From positions 115,991-179,990 of the forward strand of contig CAYGWB010000006.1 in the NCBI GenBank assembly GCA_964353775.1: a stretch of 64,000 bases of DNA, in the 5' to 3' direction. The notes beneath the pieces are model-generated. The model had not been told where the DNA came from. It searched no databases and saw only the letters and a program-made list of their open reading frames with translations. Below are positions 9,581 to 63,090 of this stretch, piece by piece; position 1 is the stretch's first letter; each line of letters begins with the position of its first letter. The translations under genes were made by a program, and so were the position numbers. This DNA is from an uncultured archaeon. GTDB taxonomy: Archaea > Aenigmatarchaeota > Aenigmatarchaeia > Aenigmatarchaeales > JAHLMS01.

Positions 9581-9732
9581 TTAATTTCTATGCGAATTTT
9601 TATAATTCAGCTCATTTCATAGTAAATATGGTCAATGTTCTCATAATTCATGATACTGAGGGCAGCCCAGAAGGAAACTGGTTCCCGTGGCTCAAAATCG
9701 AACTTGAAAAAATAAAAAATGAGCTGTGAGCT

Positions 9733-50000: not shown

Positions 50001-51346
50001 ACCTGAGCGTTGACCTTCTGGTCGGTATCATCATAGTACGATTTGTTGGCGACGGCCTTCACGTAGCTCCATCCGAGGGTCTCGTTTCTGCTGACGTTCC
50101 ACGTAGTGTTCTCCGGTCCGTACAGCGGCGTGATGTTCTTGGTCGCGCCGAGATACCAGCTGACATTCACGGACACGTTGTTTCCGAATTCATTCACAGT
50201 CGTCGAGTTGAGCCAGTAGCTGACGTTCCTGTAGAACTTCTGCCCCTCAGTAACGCTCCTGATCGTTATTCCCAGCCTTCCTCTGACATCGACGCTCGTG
50301 CTTGTCGTCGTGAACGGAGTGTAGTAGTCCTTTGTGCCGTTGACGTTGATTGTCTGTGAGCCTGGCGCGTAGCTGTCCGGTGGGTTCCAGATTATCCAGC
50401 ATCTTCCGCTGGCTGTCGTACAGTTGCAGGATCCGCTCGAGGGACCGTTAGATGTTTGGGTGCAGTTGTCCAGTAAATTGGAAGTTCCATTCCAAAATCT
50501 AACAGCAACTCCGTCTACAGTGGCGGAATAGCTGTCACGCACGGTCAGCGATATGTTGAGAGTATTAGGCGTATCACTGTTGCTGCGATATATGTAGAGA
50601 TTATCCCTATTGAGTTCTGCTAAAGTCAGCGTGTCATTCACGTTCGACAATCCGGACACATAACTGAAATCCACATTGTAGTATGAATAATCGGATATGC
50701 TGCAGCTAATATTGTGTTGGCCTGGAAGGTCACCGCCACCTGGCGACCATGTCCATGTTGCGAGACCGCTTGGGTTGGTTGATACGGTTGTTTGTGGGAC
50801 ACCGCCCTTCATGAACGTGATTGGGTAGCTGTCTATGTCACCAGTGCTGTTCGAATCCGTCACCTTGCATGTGTATGGGATGCTGCCGACGCCGCGCAAG
50901 ATGCCGGGCGAACTCAACGGGGTCGTGTTCGTGAGATTTGAATATCCGAATACGGTAAATTGTTTCTGGCTAGTGACGTTCTGGCTTCCGGTCGAATTAT
51001 TGGCGAATATTTTGACATTATATACACCTAGGTTCGAGCCAGAGTTGGTAGAGATAACATGGAATGACCAGTTCGAGGCCAAGCCAGCGATTGCCGTATC
51101 ATTTGCCCAAGAGGCGCCAGCATCCTGATGGCTGAGCCACGTGAAACTTGCGGTTTCGTTCCATTTCGCGCTTACATTGACAGCCTCTCCTTTGTGTATG
51201 ATGCTTGCGTTCACAGCGGCATCGGTCGTATAGCCTATGGCAGCGAGCGCCTGCACCGCATAGAAAGCGAAGGCTATGACTATCAAGCCGACGAGCGCCA
51301 TCGCGCCCAGCTTCGCCAGACCCTTATTTCTTCGGTATATAGACAT
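44084..51346 (-). CDS. Giant (about 2400 aa) N-glycosylation-sequon-rich surface protein with tandemly repeated beta-rich modules (adhesin-like)
   Basis: A single 7.26-kb ORF. The N-terminal signal anchor MALVGLIVIAFAFYAVQALA starts at Met16 (nt 51301). It carries hundreds of N-x-S/T sequons and about six copies of a roughly 310-aa module marked by AIQIWGYS / PIQIWGWS / QFTVFGYS. An FN3-like segment lies near the C-terminus. Confidence 0.65.
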   Translation of the reverse strand: MSIYRRNKGLAKLGAMALVGLIVIAFAFYAVQALAAIGYTTDAAVNASIIHKGEAVNVSAKWNETASFTWLSHQDAGASWANDTAIAGLASNWSFHVISTNSGSNLGVYNVKIFANNSTGSQNVTSQKQFTVFGYSNLTNTTPLSSPGILRGVGSIPYTCKVTDSNSTGDIDSYPITFMKGGVPQTTVSTNPSGLATWTWSPGGGDLPGQHNISCSISDYSYYNVDFSYVSGLSNVNDTLTLAELNRDNLYIYRSNSDTPNTLNISLTVRDSYSATVDGVAVRFWNGTSNLLDNCTQTSNGPSSGSCNCTTASGRCWIIWNPPDSYAPGSQTINVNGTKDYYTPFTTTSTSVDVRGRLGITIRSVTEGQKFYRNVSYWLNSTTVNEFGNNVSVNVSWYLGATKNITPLYGPENTTWNVSRNETLGWSYVKAVANKSYYDDTDQKVNAQVWGYSNITNMTAMDYSQNRSLIPIPIICRVRDNVTGDGIANYPVDFWKNGVKNTTILTNSVGNATWNYVPTDPVGLYNISCNITDNATLYYTADLNAAGKAGQINLTDRLVIFEYARDNAYIYRNDSYSPYITTLSAHIKDAIGDSVQNANVTWWDTTNGALIGNCTTDPIGFCSVQWNPSSNFEPNNITLDVNATGTNYYPSTTNSTWVVVQGVLILNMTNVVDEQKFYRNVNYFINSTTRAENGTAMTSHSVTWRLYNATWNNTLSPYGAENYSWTVGTGLKIGDYSLNATANLTYFTDSTQTKAIQIWGYSMINGTAIPASTPANTTTALACRVSDNVTNANISGYSVQFWSNDTLINSSTTDSTGWANTTYSWAAAGVYNVTCNITGSDIKYYTASASNSNSSLISVVATLSIFEYSVDNQFIYRNDSYSPYTASLSAHIKDTAGASVLNATVSWYDNSTGNLLYNCTDGTKPCNCTTNAIGFCSVTWNPPNNFEPSNVTLAVNATKSGYNPSTTNYTWVVVQGALNINITNVIAGQKFYRNVTYNVNSTTRAENGTVMTDHNVTWTLNNVTWNTTLSPYGAENYSWTVDQTFKLGDYSLNAIANRTYYFDSTQTKAIQIWGYSMINGTSIPVNGSINTLVNISCRVTDNVTNAPLNGYIVRFWSSISGMLGADNTDSTGWANITYSWPNAGVHNITCNFTDYNASYYTASVNNSALSELRIYGKLNVSSTSEAPGGVQVDQRRVAMLKLNFSAEGETINVTQINVTLTGTATDTNVSAIELWNDSAGIPNKSLSLTVPATFNGGVANLTLTQPIVVPAGGWKVVHVLYNISGTAFNSFTLGVTLNNSNISAIGNTSVLPIQANGSEPYSSALSTIWGWANITNATALSPTYQRGTFANVACLVSNVNTSAGITNYPVRFWRDNSTLLGTNLTNSSGIAVWNWNTTNEAVGPYNITCNITDNETLYFNDTVNNNWTGSTSLYGNLYIIFMSVSPNPIYRNDNFTPYVTTFRAEVKDELGAEIPNINISFWNATFSPALLANCTTDSILSPGVCQADWNPPNTTTPGNYSIMANASGPYYTSSTQNTTYLTIKGKLYLNITNIVSGQIFFKTQNISANVTGFDENGNVVPPPPLKWFINSTNLTNVTPPMANLTTNWENVTWYINESWTPLGVWVLNVSTNLSYYDDYRLLWPIQIWGWSRVNETNLPAATQINTPVNLACRVVDANTTSPLSSHYVNFWSNVTGFLGNNYTLFDGWSNITWTPTTAGVHLITCNITTNPAQYYTPSSGVSVTTRVYGILTANWTDEAPYTAARGTSVGMLRLNLTAFGENITLNNVSVLFTGTADDTNLTAVELWNDSSGPSMPIPGASDTSSPYELAPTSYIITNGTSKIIHVVYNISSSGMPYKTVQATIEYDNSTIVSGATSGYTFYSTMSWPADSSETFIRQLPSPDLVSPADGTITTNSTVYFNWTNVSGAVNYTIKIDNSPNMLSPEYNNTWTDRNYTWTSQQGIWYWRVSSIDAGGGASDSTIWKLTVDSSKPYINLTAPANGSTWTNPTQLIYTPWDNFSSTLNCYYTLDAVPSTLASVINGTTQYVTLSLTTGQHNISINCTDLAGNSNVSVLNNFTVDTTGALISSVVLDRNPPYYVGNVFPANNMTVNVTASDPSGVSVVTANGVVLTNITPTVWTGNVSVAFTEGIHELQVVANDTAGNRNSTTVYYFVDNTLPNVTNVTITYPLGQNHVKRYQNITISAKVFDPISGGVSSGINATIAVITNATPLGVLPGVGNSINLALTDPVNNIWSATWNCSFAGCAANLSDFQANVQASDNANIGYTTSSIKNFTVDNTGFAIFINSITPDKTSASASGTDYWQWTFNVSASGGTRIRMKVANWTDGSGHIIPVASYARLQYQNATGTWKTYNILNSYNETEAVDALNITSGWTTLILNQTIPAGTYPASYSTTYAFGIYA
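46380..50930. repeat. Tandem array of roughly 940-950-bp repeats inside the giant gene
   Basis: Blocks of 24 to 54 nt are identical between copies at 48107-48160/49048-49101, 48217-48253/49158-49194 and 47935-47958/48882-48905. More diverged copies sit near 46393, 47352 and 49990. Confidence 0.7.
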
Positions 51347-51920: not shown

Positions 51921-53210
51921 ATGAAAATGTTCGCCGATCTGCACATACACTCGCACTTCTCTCGGGCGACTTCGAAGGACATGAACATAGTCAATCTGGA
52001 GAAGTACGGGAAGCTGAAGGGCATCAACCTGATCGGATGCGGGGACTTCACGCATCCGGACTGGCTGGCCGAGCTGAAGGGCGTGCTGAAACCTGTGGGC
52101 GACTCCGGCCTTTTCCATCACACCGATGAGGGCATGTTATTCGCGCTGAGCGCCGAGATTTCTCTTATATACAGCCAGGACGGGCAGGTGAGGAAGATAC
52201 ACAACGTGCTGCTCGCGCCGTCCTTCGATGTGGTAGACCAGATAAACGAATGGCTCGGAAAGCGCGGGAATCTTTCGGCGGACGGCAGGCCGATATTCGG
52301 AAAGATAACCTGCCCTGAGTTCGTGGAAGCGATGATGAAGATTTCTAAAGACATAATGGTGATACCTGCGCATGCGTGGACGCCGTGGTTCTCACTGTTC
52401 GGTTCGATGTCCGGCTTCGACAGGATAGATGACTGCTTCCAGGACCAGACAAAGAACATTTTTGCGATCGAGACCGGCCTGTCGAGCGATCCGGCAATGA
52501 ACTGGCGGCTGTCGCAGCTCGATAGGTTCGCGCTCGTCTCGAACAGCGACTGTCACAGCTACTATCCTTGGAGACTCGGACGCGAGGCAAACGTGTTTGA
52601 CATCGAGCCCACGTATGCGAATATGATAGACGCCATAAAGACCAAGGACCCGAAAAGATTCCTGTTCACGATCGAAACTGACCCGAAGTACGGCAAATAC
52701 CACTGGGACGGCCACCGATTGTGCAATGTCGTTTTCTCTCCGAAGGAAGCGGAGAAGCACAAGAACATCTGTCCGGCATGCCGAAGGCAGCTGACAATCG
52801 GCGTGGAACACCGCGTAGAAGAACTGGCCGACAGGCCTGAGGGCTACGTACCGAAGAACGCCATACCGTTCAGATCCATGCTTCCGCTGTCCGAGCTCAT
52901 TGCAGGGCTATATAATACGCAGGCGTTCTCGAAAAAAGTGTTCGAGGTGCATGCGAAGCTGATGAAAGAGTTCGGAAATGAGTTGGCTGTTCTGCTGGAA
53001 GTGCCGGAAACGAAGTTGAAAGATGTGGTGAACGATAAAATCGTCTCCGCGATAATAACGAATAGAAGGGGCGGTATACAAGTCCAGCCCGGATATGACG
53101 GCGTCTACGGGAAAGCCATATTCGGGGCTGAAGAACTGGCAAAGCCAGAAAAAATAAAAAGGCCGCAGGCCTCACTCAGCGATTTCCTTAATTCTTCCCA
53201 ATCGCGCTGA
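51921..53210 (+). CDS. Endonuclease Q-like PHP-domain nuclease
   Basis: N-terminal DLHIHSHFSRATSKDM and GCGDFTHPDW (PHP metal ligands), a length of about 430 aa, and a C-terminal zinc finger KNICPACRRQ. It matches the Pyrococcus EndoQ architecture. The ORF track begins at a GTG at 51912, directly abutting the tRNA. Confidence 0.65.
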   Translation: MKMFADLHIHSHFSRATSKDMNIVNLEKYGKLKGINLIGCGDFTHPDWLAELKGVLKPVGDSGLFHHTDEGMLFALSAEISLIYSQDGQVRKIHNVLLAPSFDVVDQINEWLGKRGNLSADGRPIFGKITCPEFVEAMMKISKDIMVIPAHAWTPWFSLFGSMSGFDRIDDCFQDQTKNIFAIETGLSSDPAMNWRLSQLDRFALVSNSDCHSYYPWRLGREANVFDIEPTYANMIDAIKTKDPKRFLFTIETDPKYGKYHWDGHRLCNVVFSPKEAEKHKNICPACRRQLTIGVEHRVEELADRPEGYVPKNAIPFRSMLPLSELIAGLYNTQAFSKKVFEVHAKLMKEFGNELAVLLEVPETKLKDVVNDKIVSAIITNRRGGIQVQPGYDGVYGKAIFGAEELAKPEKIKRPQASLSDFLNSSQSR

Positions 53211-54129
53211 TGGAGACCTGTTGCTCTGAATAATATCCGTAGCCTGCGTTGAAGCTGACGGCATACCCTGTCTTGACGCTTGGCGGGTTCAGCACTTCCA
53301 CGTCACAGATTATGCTCGTCCTTCCACCGACCATCTGGATGTTCTGATAGCACTCGCTGCTGCTTATCTTCAGGTTCTTGCTGCCGTCCAGACCGGTTAT
53401 CTGAAGATTCAAAACATTCAGGTTAGTCTCCGAAATGGAGAATCTGCTCACATCGTTGCCGTCTGCGACACCTGTTACACTGCCATAATTGTAGGAAACT
53501 CCGCCCCCGACATTGTCGAACGTCACCTCGATGGTGAAGGTCTCGCCTGCCATCTCTATGACCGGTGGATCAGGTGCTACCCTGACTGTCATCGCTACCG
53601 GCCCTTTGGTCGTCACGAAATTCGATGACTCCAGAGTCTCGCCGCGCTCTCGCGCAGCTGTCGCCTCAGATGGCGGATATATAAATATCGTTCCTAGAGC
53701 AGTCGTGTTATAGTCGTAGTAGACCCTGCCCGTGAAGGTGAAAGGCTTTGTCTGTCCTCTCGGTAGGGTCGGCGCTTTCAGCGTCCATGTCTCTATCTGC
53801 ATGTCAGCAGGTATTCCGCGCACCGGGTCTGCCGGTCGCAGGCTCTTAGAGAAGCTGCGCACCAACATCTTGTCCGTCGGGCCCCATTCATCCGCGCCTA
53901 TCAATAGAAGTCCTCCGCCCTGCCTAACTGTGGTCTCGCCCTGGTTCTCTATCGACGCTGTCACGCGTACGTTGCTGTCGCTGTACACCTCTGTCTGATC
54001 AGAAGAGAAATCAGTAATCTCAAGGCCGTTGCCAGTTGTTGTGGTGGGCGTACCGCCCTGAGTGCAGCCGGCCACAAGCATTACGCCTAGAACCAGCAGC
54101 ACGAGCGTGATTTTTTTGTTGAAAAACAT
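53188..54129 (-). CDS. Secreted lipobox protein with beta-rich Ig/CARDB-like domains
   Basis: The signal peptide MFFNKKITLVLLVLGVMLVAGC carries a lipobox. The Thr/Gly/Val-rich beta pattern is CARDB-like (RVTASIENQGETTV). Confidence 0.5.
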   Translation of the reverse strand: MFFNKKITLVLLVLGVMLVAGCTQGGTPTTTTGNGLEITDFSSDQTEVYSDSNVRVTASIENQGETTVRQGGGLLLIGADEWGPTDKMLVRSFSKSLRPADPVRGIPADMQIETWTLKAPTLPRGQTKPFTFTGRVYYDYNTTALGTIFIYPPSEATAARERGETLESSNFVTTKGPVAMTVRVAPDPPVIEMAGETFTIEVTFDNVGGGVSYNYGSVTGVADGNDVSRFSISETNLNVLNLQITGLDGSKNLKISSSECYQNIQMVGGRTSIICDVEVLNPPSVKTGYAVSFNAGYGYYSEQQVSISAIGKN

Positions 54130-54141
54130 TACATCATCCTC

Positions 54142-54999
54142 CTATTTGTTTTTTATTTTGATAGTGAAGCTATTGTCAAGCTCGTATTTATAGTTTGCGG
54201 TCAGACTTATCGTTCCCGTGCTCACTGGGCTGTTGCCGGCTTTCGTACTGAACGTGCAGGTGCTGCGCGGCGCAGCCTTGTTTATGAACGACAGGTTGCG
54301 GTTTAGGTCGATTCCCGTGTAGTGGTTGCAATCCGAATCTTTGATATTGTCCGGCATAGTGAGCTTCACAGAACCGCTGGCCAGATTGTCGATGAATCCA
54401 CCGCCCGTGTCTGTATAGTCGATGAACATGCTTACCGTCTCGTTGTCCGCCCAGGGCTGCTCGCTGCCGAAGGTTATAGTGATAGAGACCGGGCTGTTCG
54501 ATGCGGACATGCCTGCAGTGATGTCGCCGAGCGTGCCAGCGGCTTCTCTGGCAGTATACTCCGCGTCTGAAAGGACCGTGACGCTCTGGCTAAGGCTCGC
54601 GTTCCCTTCCCAAGAAGTCCTGAACTTTATCTCGCAGTCTGTGTCGAACTGTACGGCAGGCGCGGTCCATCTGGGGTTCCAACGCAGGGTCCTGTTGGAT
54701 GTGAGGTTGTCCTTATGGTATGTGAAACCGTCCTGATCCGACCGGAACCCGCAGGTCTCGTAGACGTTGATATTGATGTTATACAAATCGGACTGCTGCG
54801 TGTTGGTGATGTCAAAATTAACGCTCATGTTCTTTTCTTCCCTGACCTCTGCCGGCACTGCGGCAACGGACATACTCATGTCAGTGTTAGTTACGGATGT
54901 CGTACCGGCTATCGGTCCGATCTGCGACTTTTGCCATGGCATCGAAACGCAGCCAGAAACGAGTATGGCAAGTGCGAGCAACAATAGCATATAGCGCAT
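54142..54999 (-). CDS. Secreted lipobox protein, beta-rich (paralogue-like)
   Basis: A signal peptide with the lipobox ILVSGC. The protein is 285 aa. Confidence 0.5.
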   Translation of the reverse strand: MRYMLLLLALAILVSGCVSMPWQKSQIGPIAGTTSVTNTDMSMSVAAVPAEVREEKNMSVNFDITNTQQSDLYNININVYETCGFRSDQDGFTYHKDNLTSNRTLRWNPRWTAPAVQFDTDCEIKFRTSWEGNASLSQSVTVLSDAEYTAREAAGTLGDITAGMSASNSPVSITITFGSEQPWADNETVSMFIDYTDTGGGFIDNLASGSVKLTMPDNIKDSDCNHYTGIDLNRNLSFINKAAPRSTCTFSTKAGNSPVSTGTISLTANYKYELDNSFTIKIKNK

Positions 55000-55035
55000 G
55001 CTATTACATCACAATATAGATAGATAAATCTTTTG

Positions 55036-56007
55036 TTAGCCTGTCAGTTCCGTGTTGATCGAGACGGACTGCTCGGCCGCCAGGTCGTAGGAATATGTGT
55101 AATTGGCTATTACCGTGAACACCTTTGTCACGTCGACCGACGGCGCCGTCAGTCCGCACCTTACCTGGATGCTCTCTTTCTGTACCATGTTGATGGTCTT
55201 GTTGTTGGTGTATATCTTAAAGTCGCCGTCCGTGTTAGTGGTATCCTTGAAGTAGCCGCCGCAGTTGTCAGTATCCATCGTCAAATCCTTCGGAATTCTC
55301 AAATCCAGGTTGCCTGTCACTATGTCCCGCAACGCGCCTGTCCCCTTGTCTTCAACCTGTATGAACAACGGTAGCGTGTTGCCGCTCTTGACTGGCAGGC
55401 TCGCGCCCCAGCTGAGGCTTATCTTGACCGGACCGGGACCGATCGTTGTCGTCGGGCTGAACGAAGCTGACTCTCCGGACCTCTGCAGCCGTTTGAGCTC
55501 ATCGGCGTTTATGACCTGCGCGGTCGATGTGCTCACGGACTCCATGGTGTAGTTGACCTTCCATCTTACCGGACAGGTCGCTTCCAATCCGCCTGTCTGC
55601 GCCTTTGTCGGCGCAGTGAAGCCGAGTTCGAAGAACTCCGTCTGCTGCGGCACTAGTTCGCCCATGTCCTTAAAGTAGGCCGACGAGCCGACTGCAGTAA
55701 AGCCTGTGGTCGTGCTTGCTGTGCAGAGGCCCCAGTCGTACAGAAGCACGCCGACGTTTTCCACTGGGAAATCGCCCGTGTTGATGACCTTGAAGTTGAG
55801 CTCGAATGTCTCGTCTGGTGAAACGCTAGAAGGAATGATGTTGATATCAGAAACTTGGATGACATCCGCCGGTGCCTCCTTTACCTCGCCTGGCTGGCCG
55901 AAGAGCCCTTGGAAACCGCCGCCGCTGATGCAGCCAGCAACGGCAACGACTGAAATCAGGAGCAGTGCGAACATCGCTTTTTGCATGATATCAATACCGT
56001 TTACCAT
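55036..56007 (-). CDS. Secreted lipobox protein, beta-rich (paralogue-like)
   Basis: A signal peptide with the lipobox VAVAGC. The protein is 323 aa. Confidence 0.5.
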   Translation of the reverse strand: MVNGIDIMQKAMFALLLISVVAVAGCISGGGFQGLFGQPGEVKEAPADVIQVSDINIIPSSVSPDETFELNFKVINTGDFPVENVGVLLYDWGLCTASTTTGFTAVGSSAYFKDMGELVPQQTEFFELGFTAPTKAQTGGLEATCPVRWKVNYTMESVSTSTAQVINADELKRLQRSGESASFSPTTTIGPGPVKISLSWGASLPVKSGNTLPLFIQVEDKGTGALRDIVTGNLDLRIPKDLTMDTDNCGGYFKDTTNTDGDFKIYTNNKTINMVQKESIQVRCGLTAPSVDVTKVFTVIANYTYSYDLAAEQSVSINTELTG

Positions 56008-56019
56008 ATATTTAATACT

Positions 56020-58143
56020 TTAACATGATGTGCATCCTTGGCACGGTGCGATCGAAGTCTGTGTTATCGTCATCTTTACCGAGTCGTCGACTGTGACATA
56101 GTGATAGTCGACGCTGCCGACGAACGCTATTGTCTTCTTGTCAAGGTTGTTCGCGATGTTGTATGCGAACTCGAACGCCCAGTTGGCAGATTCGCCAGGG
56201 CCTATCTGGCTGCTAAGGTTCAGCGTATAGCAAATGTAACTGCTGTCATCAGGGCATTCTTTTATTATCACATTATTTGCATCCGTATCGATGTTTGTAG
56301 CGGACACTGTTTTCAAGTCTACGTAAGGAGCCTCAATTCCAGAGAGGGTTTTCGGTATCCTGAGTTTTATCTTCGCGCCGTCTTTTGTCACGTTGCCGTT
56401 ACCAGTGTTCATTATCGAGATGCGTCCGAAGCTGGTCTCATTGTCTCTCAGCGGTTGCTTCTGGGCGAAAAGTGAAATCTTCACAGGCCCGCCAGAGTAT
56501 TTCGACTCCATCGATTTCAGCTGGATCTGCTTGTTCATCAGCTGCGTCTCGAACAGCGACATGTTCATTATTTCTATCGGCATGCTGACGTTCGCCATGT
56601 AGTCGAACGAATAGTCGAACGGTATGACGACTTGCCAACCACTGTGATTGTAGGTCGTTATTCCGCTCGTTAGGTCTTTTGTTTCCTTGCGTACTTTGCA
56701 GTCCTGCCAGCCGGCCGGTGCGCACTTGAAGAGCATCAGTTTTATGTCGCCCGGCAGACTTTCCTGCTTGCCTTCCTCTGTCCACTTGCAGCTGTCGGCC
56801 GTTGTGTCGGTCAGATAAGGCGTCGTGCCTGTACAGGCGGTGAATGCGCATGTATCTGATATAGATTGCCAGCACTTTTGCGGATCATTTGCAGAATATA
56901 ATGTCGGGTCGCAGACAGCCAGTTCGTGGAACTTGATGCTGATGTTGCGCGCCGTAAACGTGCCCTTGTTCTCGAGCTGCATTGAGCCTACTAACGGTAT
57001 CCTCGGGTCGAGCTCGCTCGTGCCTTCGGCGTAGTTTATCGCCATAAACTCCGTCAGTTCGATACTCTTGGCAGTGCCACCTTCAGTGACCTTGGTATTT
57101 GCCTCCTGCTGCTTCTTCTCTTGCTCGGCATAGTAGCAGGTCGGGCAGGTCATTATGGTCGTAACATCATGCATGCCGCTGCTCATCTGGTCCCAGACGC
57201 CGCCGAAAGGTTCTGCGATGGCCGTGCCGGTCGCCAGTACCTGCGGCCACCAGACACCGAATACATTGGTACCGACAACGCCGGTATATTGGAAAGAGAA
57301 CGCTATCACGGCGAGTGAAATTACGAATATGCCGAGGTAAGGTCTGGTATCCCTGCCGCCGGCATAGCCCATCACGAATGATAACAGCCATATCAGTCCG
57401 GTTATCACCTGCGCGACGGGTATGCTTGCCGCTCCAGCCGGACCCATTGTCATCCACATCACCATTGGCACGCCTCCGATGATTGCAAACGACATGAAGA
57501 TGCTGTCAGCGAACGAATCGATGGCGCCTGTGACGCCCTCCTGGAAGCCTTTGAGGGCCGTGTTCTTTATCTCAAGTACGACCTTCTGTTCGCCTTCGCG
57601 TTCCATGGGTTTCGGTGGCTGACAGAAGAAGGCTATTGCCAGGAAGAATATGGAGAAGGAAGGCGATGCGTCGCTGAAGAAATAGGAAGATAACCATGTA
57701 ATGCCGGCCCCGACGAATACCATGAATATCAAAAATATTATGAATATGAGAGCCTTCTGCCACTTCTTCTTGGCTGCGATGGTTGCGATGCCTAGACAGA
57801 TGGCAATGACGCCAGGGATGAACATCGCCATTAGATTAGTCAAGAGTTCGCCTGTGCCTCCAGGCGAAAGAATGACCAGCAGGAACACTGCCACAAGGCC
57901 GCCGACTAACATCTTGAACCAGCCCTCGATTGCCCTGAACGGCTCGTCCTTGTAGTAGCTGCTTGGCATCGTGAAGTAGGCGGCGAGCGCGGCAATCAAA
58001 CCTATTATCGGATAGAAGAAGAAGCATTGGATTGCGATGAAGAAGACCGCAAACATCTTAAGCAGGCTTTTCATCATAAGCTGGCCTATGTGTTCGCGCA
58101 TGCCCATCTTCAATTTCAGTATGTCTTCTTCTCCAGCCATCAC
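56020..58143 (-). CDS. 8-TM membrane protein with a large Cys-rich C-terminal ectodomain (unknown family)
   Basis: A 707-aa protein. The N-terminal half has about eight hydrophobic helices. The C-terminal 340 aa are rich in Cys, Thr and Asn with a C-terminal CQGCTSC. It overlaps the upstream gene by 4 nt. Confidence 0.55.
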   Translation of the reverse strand: MMAGEEDILKLKMGMREHIGQLMMKSLLKMFAVFFIAIQCFFFYPIIGLIAALAAYFTMPSSYYKDEPFRAIEGWFKMLVGGLVAVFLLVILSPGGTGELLTNLMAMFIPGVIAICLGIATIAAKKKWQKALIFIIFLIFMVFVGAGITWLSSYFFSDASPSFSIFFLAIAFFCQPPKPMEREGEQKVVLEIKNTALKGFQEGVTGAIDSFADSIFMSFAIIGGVPMVMWMTMGPAGAASIPVAQVITGLIWLLSFVMGYAGGRDTRPYLGIFVISLAVIAFSFQYTGVVGTNVFGVWWPQVLATGTAIAEPFGGVWDQMSSGMHDVTTIMTCPTCYYAEQEKKQQEANTKVTEGGTAKSIELTEFMAINYAEGTSELDPRIPLVGSMQLENKGTFTARNISIKFHELAVCDPTLYSANDPQKCWQSISDTCAFTACTGTTPYLTDTTADSCKWTEEGKQESLPGDIKLMLFKCAPAGWQDCKVRKETKDLTSGITTYNHSGWQVVIPFDYSFDYMANVSMPIEIMNMSLFETQLMNKQIQLKSMESKYSGGPVKISLFAQKQPLRDNETSFGRISIMNTGNGNVTKDGAKIKLRIPKTLSGIEAPYVDLKTVSATNIDTDANNVIIKECPDDSSYICYTLNLSSQIGPGESANWAFEFAYNIANNLDKKTIAFVGSVDYHYVTVDDSVKMTITQTSIAPCQGCTSC

Positions 58144-58916
58144 TTTCCACCTGTAAGTTCGACCTTAATCCTCCGGATCTCTCCCTGCTGTCCCGGCAGT
58201 TCTTGTCCAGCCTCTAACAATATTCTGACTATATTTTCAATCGGAACTCCACCACCTTTTAGCACTGCCACCGCATCCTGGACGCTTAAACCTGATTTCA
58301 TAAGTTGAATCATTTCTCTCTTCAGTCTTGGGAAATGCCCCGCCCTTACGGATTCCATCACTTCTGCCTCGCTGGGCATGGTTATGTAGAAAGCTAAGAA
58401 TATCAGTCCTATACCGAGCCAGATGAAATTGAAAATGCCCGCGATTAACGCGGCAGCGAACAGAATTCCCATCTCGACAAGCCTTTCTTTAACATGGATA
58501 TTCGTTACATGAATGCCGTGCTCCCAGACAGGTTTTTTCGCCTCCTCTTCTTCTTTTTTTGGCGGTAGGATTGCCTTCTTCAATCGCTTCGAATCTTCCC
58601 ATTCTTGAAATTTTGCCAGAGACCCAGGTGGCAGTCCAGCTGCCGGTCCTGCCCCCCTCCCGATCTTGGCCGTAAAACCCCCGTGCGTAGGGCACTCCCA
58701 TACATCAGTTGTTGCATCATAAGTAAGCGGGCCATTGCATGCGGGGCATACTCTCCGTGGAAATTGGGATGGTGCTGCAATGGGCGTGCTACATTCTGGA
58801 CATACTGTAGCATCATATGGTATCATCTTTCCACAAGCAGGATTGGGACATCTTTTTCTCGGAATCATCGGTGGTAAAGGAATTCTCCTTTTAAAAGTTC
58901 TAGCCAAAAGCACCAC
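58140..58916 (-). CDS. Double zinc-ribbon, TM-hairpin protein (unknown family)
   Basis: A 258-aa protein with two Cys4 ribbons (CPNPACG..CPEC and CPACNG..CPTHG), a K/E-rich linker, a hydrophobic segment of about 32 aa, and a C-terminal alpha domain. Confidence 0.5.
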   Translation of the reverse strand: MVLLARTFKRRIPLPPMIPRKRCPNPACGKMIPYDATVCPECSTPIAAPSQFPRRVCPACNGPLTYDATTDVWECPTHGGFTAKIGRGAGPAAGLPPGSLAKFQEWEDSKRLKKAILPPKKEEEEAKKPVWEHGIHVTNIHVKERLVEMGILFAAALIAGIFNFIWLGIGLIFLAFYITMPSEAEVMESVRAGHFPRLKREMIQLMKSGLSVQDAVAVLKGGGVPIENIVRILLEAGQELPGQQGEIRRIKVELTGGK

Positions 58917-58985
58917 CCTCGCTTTTACCTGTCATGAATGGAAGCATCATAACAAATAACTCCGTATCCATACTTATATTATTGC

Positions 58986-60149
58986 TCATGGACAATCGAG
59001 GCACACCCACTCGTCTTCTTCACTATCGATCGTACGTTTCTTTCGGACGTTAGTGCCTCCGCAATATGGACAAGACGGTACTTCATTCGCTGGTACTACC
59101 ACCTCGGCCATAGGCTCTCCGTACTTTTCTTCGTACTCTTCTTCTTCCTTTTCAATCGACGTTTGTGATGGCGGTGTAGGCCTTGCTGATGGTTGTACTG
59201 TGGTCGTTTGTTGCGGTCTTGGAGGCAATATTTGAATTGGGGGTGATGGCGGTAGCGGCGGTGATGGAGGTGGCGGTCGCATTACTCGCAGTGGCATATC
59301 TCTTGATGAGAGCGGCCTTAAATGTGGTGGTCTAAGCATCGGTCGTGGTGGTAGAGGTCTTTGCGGATAGTCTATGCCTTGTATTAGGTCCTTTCTTAAT
59401 TTCCGTTTTTCCCAAAAACTTAGCTCTGAGGGCGCTTTAGTACCTTTCCATTCAGGAGCCAGTTCTCCCATAGTTTCAATCATTTCTTTGGTCGGTTCTA
59501 CTAGACTTCCGCCTTCGAACAGACCTGGACTAGTCGTTTGAAAGGGCTTTCGTGGAGGCTTCATGAACGTTTTCTTTATCGGCAGTTCGGGTTCTTCCCA
59601 ATCAAGTCCTTCCAAATCAGATGGTGTACCTGTAGCTGTCTCCGTTTCCTTTGCTTCAGCCAAATCTTTATCTATTTCTTCTCCTTTTTTCTCCGCTCCT
59701 GATATCTCTTCTTCCACTACCTTTTCCTCTTTGGCCTCGATTTTCTTAGATTTCTCTATTAATTTTTCAATAGCTTCATTGCATTTTTTTTGAATTTCTG
59801 TATCACTGATGACTTGCGCATCTTTAGTCATCAGTCGAATCATATCATCGAAGAGCGAAGTATTTCCTTTTTCCAGGGCCTCTTCAGCTGTTTTAGAATT
59901 TGTCTCGAACGACTCGATACACAAATTATTAAATCCTTTCATGTATATATCCACGTCTTTCATAGCCGCTGAGAGAGAATCAATCTTTTTTACTGGCAAC
60001 GAACTCACAAGAACAGTTTCCTTTAACCTGGGTCTTTTTGGTTTAGATATGGTTGCTTCCGCACGTTGCTGTTCCGATTCTTCTATCACTTTTTCCGCGG
60101 TTTCAATATCTTGATCTGCCTTTTTCTCTGCCTCTTTTCCCTTTGGCAT
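58986..60149 (-). CDS. Acidic coiled-coil / Pro-rich protein with a C-terminal zinc ribbon (unknown family)
   Basis: A 387-aa protein with an E/K-rich N-terminal half, then a PPxP-rich tract (RPPPPSPPLPPSPP), and a terminal CPYCGG...CLDCP. Confidence 0.5.
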   Translation of the reverse strand: MPKGKEAEKKADQDIETAEKVIEESEQQRAEATISKPKRPRLKETVLVSSLPVKKIDSLSAAMKDVDIYMKGFNNLCIESFETNSKTAEEALEKGNTSLFDDMIRLMTKDAQVISDTEIQKKCNEAIEKLIEKSKKIEAKEEKVVEEEISGAEKKGEEIDKDLAEAKETETATGTPSDLEGLDWEEPELPIKKTFMKPPRKPFQTTSPGLFEGGSLVEPTKEMIETMGELAPEWKGTKAPSELSFWEKRKLRKDLIQGIDYPQRPLPPRPMLRPPHLRPLSSRDMPLRVMRPPPPSPPLPPSPPIQILPPRPQQTTTVQPSARPTPPSQTSIEKEEEEYEEKYGEPMAEVVVPANEVPSCPYCGGTNVRKKRTIDSEEDEWVCLDCP

Positions 60150-60157
60150 GCTAATTC

Positions 60158-62701
60158 TTACCTCTCCACCTTATTTATATTTTCCATTGATTCGTTTCTG
60201 ACATTCGATTCGGGCTTGAACGTAAACTCGACCGTGGATGTCAGGCCTGCCCTCTCGGCGGCCGCTATGCCCTCGACATTGCTGGCCTCAAATATCTTCT
60301 CAAGGTAAAGGTTCCTGTTCTGCACTTTTCCCTTTATGGCGGCCGGAATAATCTTGTGTTCGACCATCGTCCTCTGCTCCAGTATATTGAACTGATTTTC
60401 GAATTCGGTCGTATACTTGATGTTGTCGACGTCCAGCTCCTGCTTCACGGCAGCTAGTGCCGCCTCGACCCTGACGAGACCTCCGCCAGGAGCGCGTGAG
60501 GCCTTTGTGCCGCAGCGCGCGCAGATGTTGTAGCCGTCCTCGCCTACATAAAACTCGTGCGCGCCGTTAGGACAGCTATTCTTCCCCTCGAAGAGCGACA
60601 CGGGTGTGACGGAAGGCATTATTGTCCTTGACAATGTCTTTACTTCGCGGGGCCGCTGCAAAAATAAATCCGGGTGGACCGAAGCGATGTGCTGCTCCAG
60701 CCTTTCGTAGATTCCGTGTTCGCCGCATACCGGGCAATACAACGTTTCGAACGCCCTTTCAAATCTCTGTACCGCCTTGCGATACCTGGTGTTCAACAGA
60801 ACATTCGTCTCGCTCACGAGCTGTTTTACTGGAAGGCCGTAGAGCTGAGCAACGACATTGGACAGGACGTCCTCTCTTGACAACACCACTACGATGCTTC
60901 TGAAACGCTCAAGCTCAGGGATGAGCGACCATTCGTCCATGGTTTCTTCAGAAAGGAATATCCTCTTTATCATGCCCGGAGGTATCGGAGCGGCAGAAAT
61001 GACCTGATATTGTCCGCCCCTGGACATGCCGGGAGCGTAACGTATGAAATAGACATCGTCGGGCGCCCGCTCTATTTCCAGCACAGGACCGCCGCGGGCA
61101 TAATCGCTCGCTTCGTTCGGGTCGGCTGTCAAGTACACGGCCCTTCCTGTCACGGCCTCCCTGCCAAGACTGTCCGCTGCGAACGTGAACGAGCCGGGCT
61201 GCAGGCCGTATTTCAAAATCGCCGGCAGGCTACTGAACGAACAGCCGTGGAACCACCCCGGAAGATTCTCGATGGGAACGGTCAGTTCGCGTTTCTTTAC
61301 CTTCAATACAGGAGTCTCCTCCATCGGAAGCAGGCCTATCGGCAGCGCTTCTTCCAACGGTTGCGATCCTTCTTTAAAGGGCAGGAACGACAGTGGCAGA
61401 CCGCCCTCTTCCGCCTCGCCTCTTTCACCGGCAAGTGGCAGCAGGCCCATCGGAACTCCCTCTTCTGCGCCGCCTGTCTGTTCGATGGGCATGAAACTTA
61501 GAGGCAGCGCCTCTTCCAGACTTTCTGAAGTATCTTCCTTCGGAATGCCTAGGAAGCTCATAGGCAGCCCTTCCCGTATCGTGACAGGTCTGGGCGCCGG
61601 CGGTGCGGGTTTCGTGAACCATCCAACCTTCTTCTCAAGAGTAGGCTCGCCCTTCCTCTCGGTTACTCTGTACGTTCCGGCCGGGGCGGTTCTCTGCATC
61701 GTCCTCACGAGCTTCTCCTCGGTCACACTGCCAGGTTCTTCTCTCATCGTATATTTTGGCCCGCTGGCGGTCATGACCGGCGGCCTCTCCATGAGTTGGG
61801 GCTGTTCGGGCTCCTGATAAACAGAACCCAGCCTCGCTTCACAGCTCGGGCATGCGAATCCCGGCGGGATATCGGTCTGCAGACCGCACCTCGGACACTC
61901 GCTGTTTACAGCGTTCCTGGGGGCGCTATTGAGCGACATGCGCTGGGCATCGAGCAGCCTCTTGTGGGACTGCCAACCGGCTATGTTTTTTTGGACATCA
62001 TCCAGGGCGTTGTCCGTTTGTATTATTTTTTCATAATTCTCCTGGTCCGCTATCTGCAGCGCTCTCATGTTGTCGTTGTATTCAGTATCAATATTCAGAA
62101 GCTCGCGTTGGAATTCTTCCCTGAGGCTCTCCTGCTCCGGGCTGTACTTCTCTTTCACGTCAGGATACCATTTGATCATGGATGAAAGCTCTCTCATACG
62201 CTTGTCGAAGACCGCCTGCAGCTCCTTTTTCCTTCTCTCATTATCTTCCTTGACCTGGCTCATGCCGTTCCGTATGGTCACGATGTTGTCAGAAAGCGCT
62301 GCGTCCGTCTTGATCAATTGCTGCCTATTCGCCTCAAGCGATTGTATCTCTTCGGACACGGACTCCAGATAGACGTTCAGCTGCTCGGCCTCTGCATCGA
62401 CCTGGGCTATGAACTTCTTCGGGGCTGCCTCAATGCCTTGTATGCGCTCGAGCTCCTGGACATATGCCTCCTCGGTTATCCTTCCGGCGGAACGCGCGGT
62501 CGCGGCCTCGGACAGCCTTCTCCGGGCCTCTGCGCCGACCGGTATATATTGGGCCAGACGCCTCTCGCGTCGTCTCCTCAGCTCCTCTATAGAAAGCTCT
62601 TCAGGCACGCTGAATATTTGTCGACATGACCATAAAAACGAGAGGTTTAAATACCAACTAAAACAATTACTTGTAAGTGGTAAAAGTGTCGGAAACCCCA
62701 C
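60158..62701 (-). CDS. Large multidomain protein: coiled-coil, zinc ribbon, 14-aa LPxSFLP tandem repeats, Tpt1/KptA-like ADP-ribosyltransferase-fold domain, C-terminal zinc fingers
   Basis: An 847-aa protein from a GTG start in the ORF track. Residues 478-585 read WFHGCSFSSLPAILKYGLQPG...AVYLTADPNEAS...QYQVISAAPIPPGMI, which aligns with KptA YHGTSRRFLDEILRDGLRP...HVHLSADEATA...GVWLTDHVPPEYL. Zinc ribbons lie at residues 268-287, 655-675 and 710-731. Confidence 0.55.
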   Translation of the reverse strand: MGFPTLLPLTSNCFSWYLNLSFLWSCRQIFSVPEELSIEELRRRRERRLAQYIPVGAEARRRLSEAATARSAGRITEEAYVQELERIQGIEAAPKKFIAQVDAEAEQLNVYLESVSEEIQSLEANRQQLIKTDAALSDNIVTIRNGMSQVKEDNERRKKELQAVFDKRMRELSSMIKWYPDVKEKYSPEQESLREEFQRELLNIDTEYNDNMRALQIADQENYEKIIQTDNALDDVQKNIAGWQSHKRLLDAQRMSLNSAPRNAVNSECPRCGLQTDIPPGFACPSCEARLGSVYQEPEQPQLMERPPVMTASGPKYTMREEPGSVTEEKLVRTMQRTAPAGTYRVTERKGEPTLEKKVGWFTKPAPPAPRPVTIREGLPMSFLGIPKEDTSESLEEALPLSFMPIEQTGGAEEGVPMGLLPLAGERGEAEEGGLPLSFLPFKEGSQPLEEALPIGLLPMEETPVLKVKKRELTVPIENLPGWFHGCSFSSLPAILKYGLQPGSFTFAADSLGREAVTGRAVYLTADPNEASDYARGGPVLEIERAPDDVYFIRYAPGMSRGGQYQVISAAPIPPGMIKRIFLSEETMDEWSLIPELERFRSIVVVLSREDVLSNVVAQLYGLPVKQLVSETNVLLNTRYRKAVQRFERAFETLYCPVCGEHGIYERLEQHIASVHPDLFLQRPREVKTLSRTIMPSVTPVSLFEGKNSCPNGAHEFYVGEDGYNICARCGTKASRAPGGGLVRVEAALAAVKQELDVDNIKYTTEFENQFNILEQRTMVEHKIIPAAIKGKVQNRNLYLEKIFEASNVEGIAAAERAGLTSTVEFTFKPESNVRNESMENINKVER
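61309..61570. repeat. Tandem 14-codon repeats encoding EE(A/G)LP(L/M)(S/G)(F/L)LP x6 inside the 847-aa gene
   Basis: The protein segment GLPMSFLGIPKEDTSESLEEALPLSFMPIEQTGGAEEGVPMGLLPLAGERGEAEEGGLPLSFLPFKEGSQPLEEALPIGLLPMEETP contains the copies. The underlying DNA also repeats (ggcagcaggcc.atcggca.c..ctcttc). Confidence 0.6.
62644..62654. promoter_or_regulatory. TATA-like box ggtttaaatac in the divergent region between the 847-aa gene and the 62677 gene
   Basis: It sits about 25 nt upstream of the plus-strand GTG start at 62677. Confidence 0.3.
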
Positions 62702-63090
62702 AATATACCGGCAGTGACGTCGCGGACGCCATGCGCAGCTACGTCGCAGACGTCAGCAAGGACCTGAGAAAAATAGAGGAAGTGAAGGACCCTGCGAAAC
62801 AGCTTGAGTTCTACAAAGAGGTATTGAGCGGTATAGAAGAGGATGAAAAGGACTTCAAGATCGATATGTGCAGTATCGTGTCGGCCGAGACCGAGCTCGC
62901 GAACAGAGGTAAGATGCCGATGGAATGCATACCTATTATGGAAAAGCTAAAGACCGAACCTACGCCGGCAGAAAAGGTAGTTATCGAATACAACAATATC
63001 GAGCTGCTGAAGATGAGGGTCAATGGACGCATCAAAGAGCTTTCCAAGAAGTATTCTAAAAAGCGTGCGGAAAAATATTCCAAAAATTAG
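62677..63090 (+). CDS. Hypothetical cytoplasmic K/E-rich protein (137 aa)
   Basis: The start is a GTG in the ORF track, with an alternative ATG at about 62731. No family recognised. Confidence 0.4.
   Translation: MVKVSETPQYTGSDVADAMRSYVADVSKDLRKIEEVKDPAKQLEFYKEVLSGIEEDEKDFKIDMCSIVSAETELANRGKMPMECIPIMEKLKTEPTPAEKVVIEYNNIELLKMRVNGRIKELSKKYSKKRAEKYSKN

What the first reader, a model, noticed from the sequence alone, without database searches (positions are those of the whole stretch)
60946..61270. Tpt1/KptA-like ADP-ribosyltransferase-fold domain embedded in an 847-aa coiled-coil/zinc-finger protein
Residues 478-585 align motif by motif with RNA 2'-phosphotransferase KptA/Tpt1: FHGCS...ILKYGLQP matches YHGTS...ILRDGLRP, VYLTADPNEA matches VHLSADEATA, and ISAAPIPPGMI matches LTDHVPPEYL. 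The Tpt1 N-terminal winged-helix with the catalytic Arg-His pair is absent. The second His is replaced by Tyr, giving an H-Y-x pattern that also resembles PARP-type mono-ADP-ribosyltransferases. Tpt1 homologues are normally stand-alone proteins of about 180 aa. A fusion into a large scaffold with zinc ribbons next to membrane and secreted proteins suggests an NAD-using effector, such as a toxin or an RNA or protein modifier, rather than a housekeeping enzyme.
Basis: partly seen in the sequence, partly recalled or inferred. Interest (0 to 1): 0.6.

Follow-up and report, generated by a model that had tools for sequence, protein, structure and literature searches.

The report
Orphan Tpt1-like NAD-binding domain, archaeal
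A large archaeal protein really does contain a highly diverged copy of the NAD-binding half of the RNA-repair enzyme Tpt1/KptA, without that enzyme's RNA-binding half and joined instead to zinc fingers; it defines a tiny, undescribed family whose chemistry is still unknown.

Summary
Residues 478-585 of the minus-strand ORF 60158..62701 carry the quoted motifs. This ORF is 847 codons long, and the public gene call is 816 aa starting at GTG 62608.

Curated HMM libraries (Pfam, NCBIfam, PADLOC) give nothing significant; PHROGs matches only lie outside the domain. Three other lines show an ADP-ribosyltransferase (ART) fold closest to the Tpt1/KptA NAD+ lobe:
- Profile-profile comparison with four Tpt1 NAD+ lobes gives P 5e-7 and score 42.2. 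The maximum over 200 shuffles was 22.1.
- A viral bridging homologue itself hits Tpt1 models.

It is not a Tpt1. The RNA lobe and three of the four catalytic tetrad residues are absent, and the fourth position is Phe. The second His is Tyr here and Phe in the two closest homologues. No acidic third residue is conserved.

The family is minute: two homologues among 1.84 billion representatives. The conserved module is the ART domain plus a C2H2-like finger plus a CHCC zinc ribbon.

The gene heads a 7-gene envelope operon (zinc-ribbon, membrane and lipoprotein genes) between housekeeping genes. I found no toxin, delivery or immunity features.

Best reading: a new ART-fold family that probably binds NAD+. 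Whether it is catalytically active is unproven.

The parts
60158..62608 (-). Gene for the 816-aa protein (public call P0001). The mechanical ORF extends to 62701 (847 codons). Residue numbers in this report follow the 847-codon ORF.
62645..62652 (-). TATA-box-like TATTTAAA about 40 nt upstream of the GTG start; putative archaeal promoter (inference).
62114..62428 (-). Residues about 92-196: charged helical region with heptad periodicity above shuffled controls; probable coiled coil.
   Evidence: weak matches to coiled-coil segments of JetC/ZorA/DruC
61841..61897 (-). Zinc ribbon 1 (CPRC-x11-CPSC, residues 269-287).
   Evidence: weak HypA/zinc-ribbon-type hits; phrog_1467 spans residues 176-292
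61325..61567 (-). Array of five acidic-flanked peptide motifs [LV]P[LMI][SG][FL][LM][PG] (residues 379-459) inside a Pro/Glu-rich linker (residues about 295-470).
   Evidence: no DNA tandem repeat
60950..61258 (-). ART-fold core, residues 482-584. beta1 WFHG (His485), alpha1 LPAILKYGLQP, a 14-residue insert with invariant Arg514/Arg520, beta2 VYLT (Tyr523), alpha2 EASDYA, beta3 VLEIE, beta4, beta5 QYQVI, beta6 IKRIFL.
60866..60949 (-). Conserved extension of the domain (residues 585-612: DEW..P.L helices plus strand VVVL), present in all three family members.
60674..60736 (-). C2H2-like zinc finger (Cys656, Cys659, His671, His676). Conserved in P0003; the second Cys is lost in P0004.
   Evidence: zf-Di19/C2H2-type weak hits for P0003
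60512..60574 (-). CHCC zinc ribbon (Cys710, His715, Cys727, Cys730); all four ligands invariant in the three family members.
   Evidence: weak Zn_ribbon_RRN7/TFIIB-type hits
60161..60505 (-). C-terminal tail (residues 733-847), not conserved in the homologues.
58986..60149 (-). Operon gene 2: 387 aa, acidic/helical N-terminal half, Pro-rich middle, C-terminal zinc ribbon. Starts 8 nt after the stop of gene 1.
58140..58916 (-). Operon gene 3: double zinc ribbon (includes a CPTHG motif) plus a transmembrane segment. The public call is 242 aa. A protein of similar build follows the homologue P0003 on its contig.
56020..58143 (-). Operon gene 4: about 706-aa polytopic membrane protein with a large Cys-rich extracytoplasmic domain.
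53188..56007 (-). Operon genes 5-7: three predicted lipoproteins (323, 285 and 313 aa; signal peptide plus [AS]GC lipobox; one weak CARDB hit).
53159..53173 (-). Terminator-like hairpin plus T-run just after the last operon gene.

Best explanation
Residues about 482-612 form a highly diverged ADP-ribosyltransferase-fold domain derived from, or sister to, the NAD+ lobe of Tpt1/KptA. It stands alone, without the Tpt1 RNA lobe. It is always followed by a helical linker, a C2H2-like finger and a CHCC zinc ribbon.

In this archaeon the module has been built into a larger cytoplasmic scaffold: coiled coil, zinc ribbon, then a disordered linker with five LPxSFLP-type motifs. This protein is the first product of a 7-gene operon that also encodes two more zinc-ribbon proteins (one membrane-anchored), a polytopic membrane protein and three lipoproteins.

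Proposed mechanism:
- The domain binds NAD+ in the canonical ART cleft. His485 and the backbone of Gly486 would hold the adenosine ribose and nicotinamide. Leu492, Ala494 and Ile495, with Gly499-Leu-Gln-Pro502, would hold the adenine. Tyr523 and Thr525 would sit at the distal ribose. Arg520 and/or Arg536 would sit at the pyrophosphate.
- Like Tpt1, it lacks a catalytic Glu. It would therefore transfer one ADP-ribose by substrate-assisted attack of a nucleophile, most plausibly a phosphate or hydroxyl.
- The substrate would be positioned by the zinc modules or by the membrane-anchored zinc-ribbon partner.

Shown: the sequence motifs, homology to the Tpt1 NAD+ lobe, the predicted ART fold, absence of the RNA lobe and tetrad, the conserved zinc modules, the operon layout and the rarity of the family.

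Inferred: NAD+ binding (about 0.55), catalysis (about 0.4), and the nature of the substrate (unknown).
For: Homology:
- hhalign of the family against Tpt1 NAD lobes: P 5.1e-7, score 42.2, against a shuffle maximum of 22.1. At low mact the alignment spans the whole lobe in one register.
- hhalign against E. coli KptA alone: P 0.012, same register.

Fold:
- AF2 model from the 3-sequence alignment: pLDDT 60.7, pTM 0.60, with a beta1-alpha-beta2-alpha-beta3-beta4-beta5-beta6 order.
- Foldseek against the PDB: the top 20 are almost all Tpt1/KptA (best E 3.7e-3, probability 1.0).
- BFVD hits include DarT, KptA and PARP-domain phage proteins.

Bridge sequence: a viral protein (L005 9557-10612) aligns to the family at P 2.9e-7. 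It also hits NCBIfam RNA 2'-phosphotransferase (E 3.6e-5), Pfam PARP (E 0.0023) and PTS_2-RNA (E 0.042). Its only PDB hits are Tpt1/KptA.

NAD-contact residues listed for CthTpt1 (PMC6333775) have conserved counterparts: His, Gly, Leu-for-Phe, [AST]-Ile, and Gly-Leu-Gln-Pro, which is identical to Cth G115-P118. There is also one basic residue after alpha2.

Family-invariant residues cluster on these elements.

An ART with Phe at the Tyr position can be active: AcrIF11 (PMC8120803).

Context: the conserved zinc modules and a zinc-ribbon/TM neighbour at both loci where context exists.
Against: - No curated HMM reaches significance for the domain.
- The model is only medium confidence, and residues 34-53 and 84-96 of the model are poorly predicted.
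- Only three family sequences exist, so conservation is weakly sampled.
- The tetrad Arg of the NAD lobe aligns to invariant Phe505. The Thr of HGT is Cys here.
- The third-site residue varies (Tyr/Tyr/Val or Gln/Glu/Gly, depending on register).
- The C-terminal half of the domain has no independent statistical support.
- No eraser (macro/ARH/NUDIX) or other NAD-pathway gene lies in the operon.
- A pseudoenzyme is therefore quite possible.
Confidence: 0.55

Rival explanations
1. Pseudoenzyme or sensor. The domain keeps the ART fold, and perhaps NAD+/ADP-ribose binding, but no longer catalyses transfer. It would serve as a ligand sensor or a purely structural interaction module in a membrane-associated scaffold.
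For: Three of four Tpt1 catalytic residues are absent and the fourth position is Phe. No conserved acidic third residue. Tyr is replaced by Phe in the homologues. The domain is embedded between a coiled coil, a peptide-motif linker and zinc ribbons, which is typical of scaffolds. No ADP-ribose-processing partner is nearby.
Against: The residues that line the NAD+ site in Tpt1 are the best-conserved part of the family. Invariant Arg514, Arg520, Glu542 and Glu544 suggest a functional pocket. ARTs without Glu, and with Phe at the Tyr site, are known to be active: Tpt1 and AcrIF11 (PMC10415124, PMC8120803).
Confidence: 0.3
2. Canonical housekeeping RNA 2'-phosphotransferase (Tpt1/KptA) that happens to be fused into a larger protein.
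For: Tpt1 is the nearest sequence and fold neighbour. The LP[AS]ILKYGLQP helix closely matches archaeal KptA LPSILKEGLKP.
Against: No RNA lobe and no Arg-His-Arg of the tetrad. Phe sits at the fourth tetrad position. There is no PF01885 or NF002013 hit. A 14-residue insert precedes beta2. The second His is lost. The family is extremely rare, whereas KptA is widespread.
Confidence: 0.02
3. Secreted or delivered NAD-dependent toxin or effector.
For: ART folds are common toxin warheads. DarT and pertussis-like toxins are among the fold hits. The remote viral homologue sits in a block of genes sharing an N-terminal MKYTDYY leader, which could mark packaged or injected proteins.
Against: I saw no signal peptide, transmembrane segment or recognisable delivery domain in the protein, though this was by inspection and no predictor was run. 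No immunity, antitoxin or macro gene is present. PADLOC gave only coiled-coil noise. The gene is chromosomal, between pelota and an EndoQ-like gene. The domain is internal, not C-terminal.
Confidence: 0.05
4. Chance motif resemblance; the domain has a different fold.
For: Pfam, NCBIfam and PDB sequence searches are negative for the domain itself. The single-sequence AF2 run failed. The final model is of medium confidence and could be biased by learned Tpt1 motifs.
Confidence: 0.08

Closest known systems
Tpt1/KptA RNA 2'-phosphotransferase (PF01885; H-H-h clade of ARTs), NAD+ lobe only
   Different: No winged-helix RNA lobe. No Arg-His-Arg of the tetrad, and Phe at the fourth Arg position. The second His is Tyr/Phe. 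A 14-residue insert with two invariant Arg precedes beta2. Invariant Glu-x-Glu on beta3. It is followed by zinc modules. It fails all curated Tpt1 HMMs.
DarT (ssDNA thymidine ADP-ribosyltransferase, DUF4433)
   Different: No sequence or HMM match. No adjacent DarG macro-domain antitoxin. The DarT catalytic Glu (E160) has no conserved counterpart.
CC0527 / DUF952 (H-H-h ART-like, function unknown)
   Different: Lower score, no sequence match, bacterial distribution and no zinc modules.
PARP-type (H-Y-[EDQ]) ARTs, including zinc-finger PARPs
   Same: His-Tyr in this protein. G-x-x-V-Y-L-T-A-D..A..Y-A resembles the PARP GxGIYFA..S..Y motif. An ART domain combined with zinc fingers recalls PARP1/7/12/13. 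Sub-threshold PF00644 hits: E 0.34 here and E 0.0023 for the viral relative.
Uncharacterised viral ART protein (IMG/VR UViG_3300032237_001169, ORF 9557-10612 of L005; phrog_13493)
   Same: The only other detectable relative of the domain: LYHGTSSEDLPTIMKYGLQP, FIYLATD..YRYA, PVVLEV, SIPPQYLKIKEI. It has the same insert position before beta2.
   Different: It has a different N-terminal region and large inserts, and no zinc modules. It keeps HGT and an Arg at the Tpt1 tetrad position. It sits in a viral genome near a NUDIX gene.

Membership tests
Tpt1/KptA (PF01885, NF002013) | Two-lobe architecture with an N-terminal winged-helix RNA lobe | tested here: not met
Tpt1/KptA (PF01885, NF002013) | Arg-His-Arg-Arg catalytic tetrad (PMC6333775) | tested here: not met
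   The first three residues lie in the missing lobe. The fourth (Cth Arg121 / Eco Arg125) aligns to invariant Phe505. Invariant Arg514/Arg520 lie in a family-specific insert and are not positionally equivalent.
Tpt1/KptA (PF01885, NF002013) | H-H-h motif (HGT; second His on beta2; hydrophobic third residue) (PMC10415124, PMC8120803) | tested here: inconclusive
   The first His is invariant. The Thr is Cys/Ile/Thr. The second His is replaced by Tyr (here) or Phe (homologues). The third position is Tyr565 by hhalign, which is hydrophobic, but that part of the alignment is not significant alone.
Tpt1/KptA (PF01885, NF002013) | Scores above the curated HMM cut-off | tested here: not met
   No PF01885 hit at E<=10 and no NF002013 hit at E<=0.01 for the window protein, P0003 or P0004.
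Tpt1/KptA (PF01885, NF002013) | NAD+-dependent removal of RNA 2'-phosphate | not testable with these tools
   Biochemical assay needed.
ADP-ribosyltransferase superfamily (fold level) | Split six-stranded beta-sheet NAD+-binding fold with beta1-alpha-beta2-alpha order | tested here: met
ADP-ribosyltransferase superfamily (fold level) | Binds NAD+ and transfers or hydrolyses ADP-ribose | not testable with these tools
   Only inferred from conservation of Tpt1 NAD-contact positions (PMC6333775).
PARP / diphtheria-toxin-like H-Y-[EDQ] clade (PF00644) | Conserved His-Tyr-Glu/Asp/Gln triad and family HMM score | tested here: not met
DarT-DarG toxin-antitoxin | DUF4433 ART with an adjacent macro-domain antitoxin | tested here: not met
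   No Pfam or PADLOC hit. No macro domain in the neighbours scanned. Only fold-level similarity.
Secreted / polymorphic ART toxins | Signal or delivery domain, C-terminal warhead and an adjacent immunity gene | tested here: not met
   The domain is internal. I saw no signal peptide or transmembrane segment by inspection. No toxin, defence or immunity family was found in the neighbours. No formal signal-peptide predictor was available.

The most novel reading that the evidence does not exclude
This would be a Tpt1-derived enzyme that has exchanged its RNA lobe for zinc modules. It would be tethered to a trans-envelope complex through a membrane-anchored zinc-ribbon partner. There it would use NAD+ to ADP-ribosylate a non-RNA phosphate- or hydroxyl-bearing substrate: a partner protein, a phosphorylated envelope precursor or a nucleic-acid end. 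Alternatively it would release a soluble ADP-ribose derivative. Either way it would be a previously unknown NAD+-dependent modification or signalling step in archaeal envelope biology.
Probability: 0.15. Interest if true: 0.8.

Novelty: new variant of a known kind. Interest (0 to 1): 0.45.

Why it matters
ADP-ribosylation in archaea is almost unexplored. Tpt1/KptA is the one ART that archaea widely possess, and its role there is unknown.

A family that keeps only the Tpt1 NAD+ lobe and couples it to zinc fingers would show how the H-H-h clade can be re-targeted. This parallels what DarT and zinc-finger PARPs did in other clades. It also offers a compact test case of about 150-270 residues for substrate-assisted ADP-ribosylation without the catalytic tetrad.

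The finding also shows that profile-profile and fold methods recover ART domains that every curated HMM library misses.

The limits are real. The family is tiny (three cellular sequences plus one viral relative), no function is demonstrated, and it may be a pseudoenzyme.

Tried and rejected
- Pfam, NCBIfam, PADLOC and PHROGs on the protein, the domain and the homologues gave no significant ART family. Only coiled-coil or zinc-ribbon noise and phrog_1467 (unknown function) appeared.
- PDB sequence searches with the protein, the domain and the family profile gave only spurious lactate/malate dehydrogenase hits, or nothing.
- Single-sequence AF2 was useless, with pLDDT 31.7.
- The word-index homologue search found only the protein itself, or nothing. 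With the profile it found only the two known homologues.
- The exhaustive phmmer search found two real homologues plus one spurious repeat protein, P0005.
- Genome contigs (2 scans) and metagenome contigs (pattern scan plus my own degenerate-DNA scan for I[LM]KYGLQP) found no further members. The only ART-like hit was a genuine Tpt1, L088.
- Viral contigs found one remote relative, L005, and no relatives of that relative. It found none for the 707-aa membrane neighbour.
- tblastn against GenBank phages found nothing.
- The afdb50 fold library was unavailable.
- A plain HMM of four Tpt1 NAD lobes does not pick the ORF out of the six-frame translation (E 1.2). There is no second copy of the domain and no canonical KptA in the window.
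- BLASTP between the downstream neighbours at the two loci shows only zinc-ribbon-level similarity with a shared CPTHG motif. Conservation of the neighbour is therefore architectural and not proven homology.
- The antisense ORFs 61010..61501 and 61185..61817 were dismissed as shadows of the long gene, which has homologues.
Full report
**1. What is at the coordinates**

The finding lies inside a long minus-strand ORF, 60158..62701 (847 codons from the first GTG).
- Residues 478-585 correspond exactly to 60946..61270.
- They contain WFHGCSFSSLPAILKYGLQPG (483-503), GRAVYLTADPNEASDYAR (519-536), PVLEIER (539-545) and QYQVISAAPIPPGMIKRIFL (564-583).
- The public gene call for this sequence (P0001; NCBI and Logan) is 816 aa and starts at the GTG at 62608.
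- This shorter start fits two facts. A TATA-like TATTTAAA lies about 40 nt upstream. A divergent plus-strand ORF starting at 62677 overlaps the extra codons.
- The plus-strand ORFs that overlap the finding (61010..61501 and 61185..61817) are antisense shadows of a gene that has homologues.
- No Rfam family lies there.

**2. Genomic setting**

The window is archaeal chromosome.
- It carries an archaeal 23S rRNA, RNase P RNA and three tRNAs.
- It also encodes tetraether lipid synthase Tes, type III RuBisCO, AMP phosphorylase and mevalonate kinase.
- On a second assembly of the same locus (L001) the gene follows pelota and arginine decarboxylase genes.

Downstream on the same strand, with gaps of -4 to 69 nt, lie six more genes:
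- a 387-aa acidic/Pro-rich protein ending in a zinc ribbon;
- a 242/258-aa double-zinc-ribbon protein with a transmembrane segment;
- a polytopic membrane protein of about 706 aa with a large Cys-rich outer domain;
- three lipoproteins (signal peptide plus [AS]GC lipobox).

A hairpin followed by a T-run sits just after the last gene, at 53173-53159. Next comes a convergent TIGR00375/MJ0043-type PHP-domain gene, which looks like endonuclease Q by my reading. The ART-like protein therefore heads a 7-gene envelope-associated operon in an ordinary chromosomal context. None of these genes matches a defence, toxin or phage family.

**3. Do standard methods see an ART domain?**

No.
- Pfam on the full protein gives only sub-threshold zinc-ribbon and coiled-coil noise.
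- The domain alone gives nothing. The 108-aa fragment gives PARP at E 0.34, 10.8 bits against a cut-off of 26.7.
- NCBIfam, PADLOC and PHROGs are negative for the domain.
- PDB sequence searches return only chance dehydrogenase hits.
- Single-sequence AlphaFold failed, with pLDDT 31.7.

**4. Homologues**

The word-index search found only the protein itself. An exhaustive phmmer search of residues 471-847 against 1.84 billion representatives found two real relatives:
- P0003: 444 aa, E 6e-40, 41% identity.
- P0004: 311 aa, E 5e-11.
- A third hit, P0005, is a spurious repeat protein.

In both relatives the domain sits at the extreme N-terminus. After a helical linker it is followed by a C2H2-like finger (CPVC..H-x4-H; the second Cys is lost in P0004) and a CHCC ribbon whose four ligands are invariant.

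The evolutionary unit is therefore the ART-like domain plus two zinc modules. The coiled coil (heptad periodicity above shuffles at residues about 92-196), the first zinc ribbon (269-287), the long disordered linker and the C-terminal tail are additions specific to this protein.

Further scans found no more members. These covered GTDB genomes, JGI metagenomes (including my own degenerate-DNA scan) and GenBank phages. IMG/VR yielded one remote relative, ORF 9557-10612 (351 aa) of L005.

On the P0003 contig the next gene again encodes zinc ribbons plus a C-terminal transmembrane segment. These include a CPTHG motif shared with window gene 58140..58916. This is architectural conservation only.

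**5. Is the similarity to Tpt1 real?**

I took E. coli KptA from the MG1655 record. I took the NAD+ lobes of Runella, C. thermocellum and T. kodakarensis Tpt1 from PDB alignments.

- Against the four-sequence NAD-lobe alignment it gives probability 92.4%, P 5.1e-7 and score 42.2.
- Two hundred column-shuffled templates gave mean 11.4, sd 2.4, max 22.1. The reversed template gave 9.2.
- With a permissive posterior threshold the alignment extends over the entire lobe (query 9-108, template 1-84).
- The C-terminal half alone is not significant (P 0.52), so the third pairing rests on register and fold only.

The viral relative is an independent bridge.
- It aligns to A3 at P 2.9e-7.
- It hits NCBIfam RNA 2'-phosphotransferase at E 3.6e-5, Pfam PARP at 0.0023 and PTS_2-RNA at 0.042.
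- All six of its PDB hits at E<=10 are Tpt1/KptA.
- A genuine metagenomic Tpt1 (L088) even carries IFKYGLQP.
- T. kodakarensis KptA has LPSILKEGLKP, against LPSILKYGLQP in P0003.

**6. Fold**

AlphaFold on the 3-sequence alignment gave pLDDT 60.7 and pTM 0.60. Confident segments cover beta1-alpha1, alpha2-beta3 and beta5-beta6 plus the following helices. The element order is E-H-(E)-H-E-E-E-E.

| Search | Result |
|---|---|
| Foldseek, PDB | Tpt1/KptA in almost all of the top 20 (best E 3.7e-3, probability 1.0) |
| Foldseek, BFVD | Uncharacterised phage proteins plus DarT, KptA and a PARP-domain protein |

**7. Residue mapping**

This is inference from the hhalign register combined with PMC6333775 and PMC10415124.

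| Tpt1 position (C. thermocellum unless stated) | Role in Tpt1 | Counterpart in this family |
|---|---|---|
| His101 / Gly102 | Adenosine ribose, nicotinamide | His485 (invariant in 4/4); Gly486 |
| Thr103 | Adenosine ribose | Cys487 here (Ile/Thr/Thr in relatives) |
| Phe107 | NAD contact | Leu492 |
| Ser110-Ile111 | Adenine | Ala494-Ile495 ([AST]-Ile in the family) |
| Gly115-Leu-Gln-Pro118 | Adenine | Gly499-Leu-Gln-Pro502 (identical) |
| Arg139/140 | Pyrophosphate | Arg536 (His/Arg/Lys in relatives) |
| Arg121 (tetrad) | Catalysis | Invariant Phe505 |
| Second His of H-H-V | Distal ribose | Tyr523 (Phe, Phe, Tyr in relatives); the following Leu-[Thr/Ser] is kept |
| Val of H-H-V | Nicotinamide | Tyr565 |

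- A family-specific 14-residue insert follows Phe505. It carries invariant Asp510, Arg514 and Arg520, directly before beta2.
- One residue either side of Tyr565 the family has Gln/Glu/Asp-type residues, but none is conserved.
- Glu542 on beta3 is conserved in the three family members and apparently also in the viral relative (my manual alignment of PVVLEV with PVLEIE). Glu544 is invariant in the three cellular members. Neither has a Tpt1 counterpart.

The signature is therefore H-[Y/F]-h with a preserved adenosine-binding half. This is closer to the H-H-h clade than to H-Y-[EDQ].

**8. Interpretation**

- The domain is a genuine, very divergent ART fold related to the Tpt1 NAD+ lobe (confidence about 0.85-0.9).
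- It is not a Tpt1. The RNA lobe and tetrad, which define that enzyme's chemistry (PMC6333775, PMC8120803), are missing.
- It is not filed as PARP, DarT or DUF952, because each fails sequence or context tests.
- The preserved NAD-contact positions favour NAD+ binding (about 0.55).
- Catalysis is open (about 0.4). Tpt1 and PARP10-type enzymes work without a catalytic Glu, by substrate-assisted mechanisms. AcrIF11 works with Phe at the Tyr site (PMC10415124, PMC8120803). Loss of the tetrad Arg and the small, variable family leave a pseudoenzyme or sensor as a serious rival (about 0.3).
- The invariant zinc modules are the obvious candidates for substrate recognition in place of the winged helix.
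- The conserved membrane-anchored zinc-ribbon neighbour and the envelope operon suggest action at the membrane.
- The toxin/effector idea has no support in the context.

**9. Novelty and score**

No curated library or paper I could search describes this family or architecture.
- The closest published precedents are KptA domains embedded in viral polyproteins or fused to Nudix (PMC9503650), and RNA-lobe-less Tpt1-like DUF952 (PMC8120803).
- It is a new variant within a well-known superfamily, not a new kind of system.
- It is extremely rare: two homologues among 1.84 billion representatives.
- I score interest at 0.45. An ADP-ribosylation specialist would find it moderately surprising, it is experimentally tractable, and function is unproven.

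Noticed in passing
window 61325-61567 (-), residues 379-459 of the ORF: Five copies of the peptide motif [LV]P[LMI][SG][FL][LM][PG], each preceded by EE[AG]. They are spaced 17-20 residues apart in a Pro/Glu-rich linker just before the ART-like domain. There is no DNA-level tandem repeat. It looks like a short-linear-motif array for a multivalent partner, and it is absent from the homologues.
   Followed up: partly
window 53188-62608 (-): An apparent 7-gene operon of orphan genes. It encodes three zinc-ribbon proteins (one membrane-anchored), a polytopic membrane protein with a Cys-rich outer domain, and three lipobox lipoproteins (one weak CARDB hit). It ends at a terminator-like hairpin at 53173-53159. 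No family in Pfam, NCBIfam, PADLOC or PHROGs explains it.
   Followed up: partly
window 44084-51346 (-): A 2420-aa predicted surface protein with internal repeats, weak Big_13/Big_1 hits and a very high density of N-x-S/T sequons. It is probably a heavily N-glycosylated adhesin or S-layer-associated protein. A second large S-layer-type protein lies at 35901-38675 (TIGR01564, E 3e-7).
   Followed up: no
L005 7290-13820 (IMGVR_UViG_3300032237_001169): Five consecutive viral genes, including the remote ART homologue, all begin with MKYTDYY[NSA][HY]L but diverge afterwards. This could be a shared N-terminal leader or targeting signal. A NUDIX hydrolase gene lies about 3.5 kb downstream (14156-14863). 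The contig is 33% GC.
   Followed up: partly
window 5578-8925 (-): The archaeal 23S rRNA match spans 3348 nt against a 2987-nt model, so it probably contains one or more insertions or introns. No 16S gene is adjacent, so the rRNA genes are unlinked. RNase P RNA lies at 4508-4802.
   Followed up: no
window 9733-10929 (-): The methionine adenosyltransferase matches TIGR01034 metK (E 1.9e-176). To my knowledge this model represents the bacterial/eukaryotic type, which would be unusual in an archaeal genome. That would suggest lateral acquisition or a lineage trait.
   Followed up: no
L088 (metagenome contig, around protein position 1681 of the + frame): A genuine Tpt1/KptA (LYHGTATKNLEQIFKYGLQPCQRTHVHLTENYETA...) carries the same KYGLQP helix motif as the new family. 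The motif is therefore within the natural variation of true Tpt1 enzymes.
   Followed up: no
window 62609-62701 (-) and 62677-63090 (+): The first 31 codons of the 847-codon ORF are probably not translated. The public call starts at GTG 62608, and a divergent 137-aa ORF with no family match overlaps the extension.
   Followed up: partly
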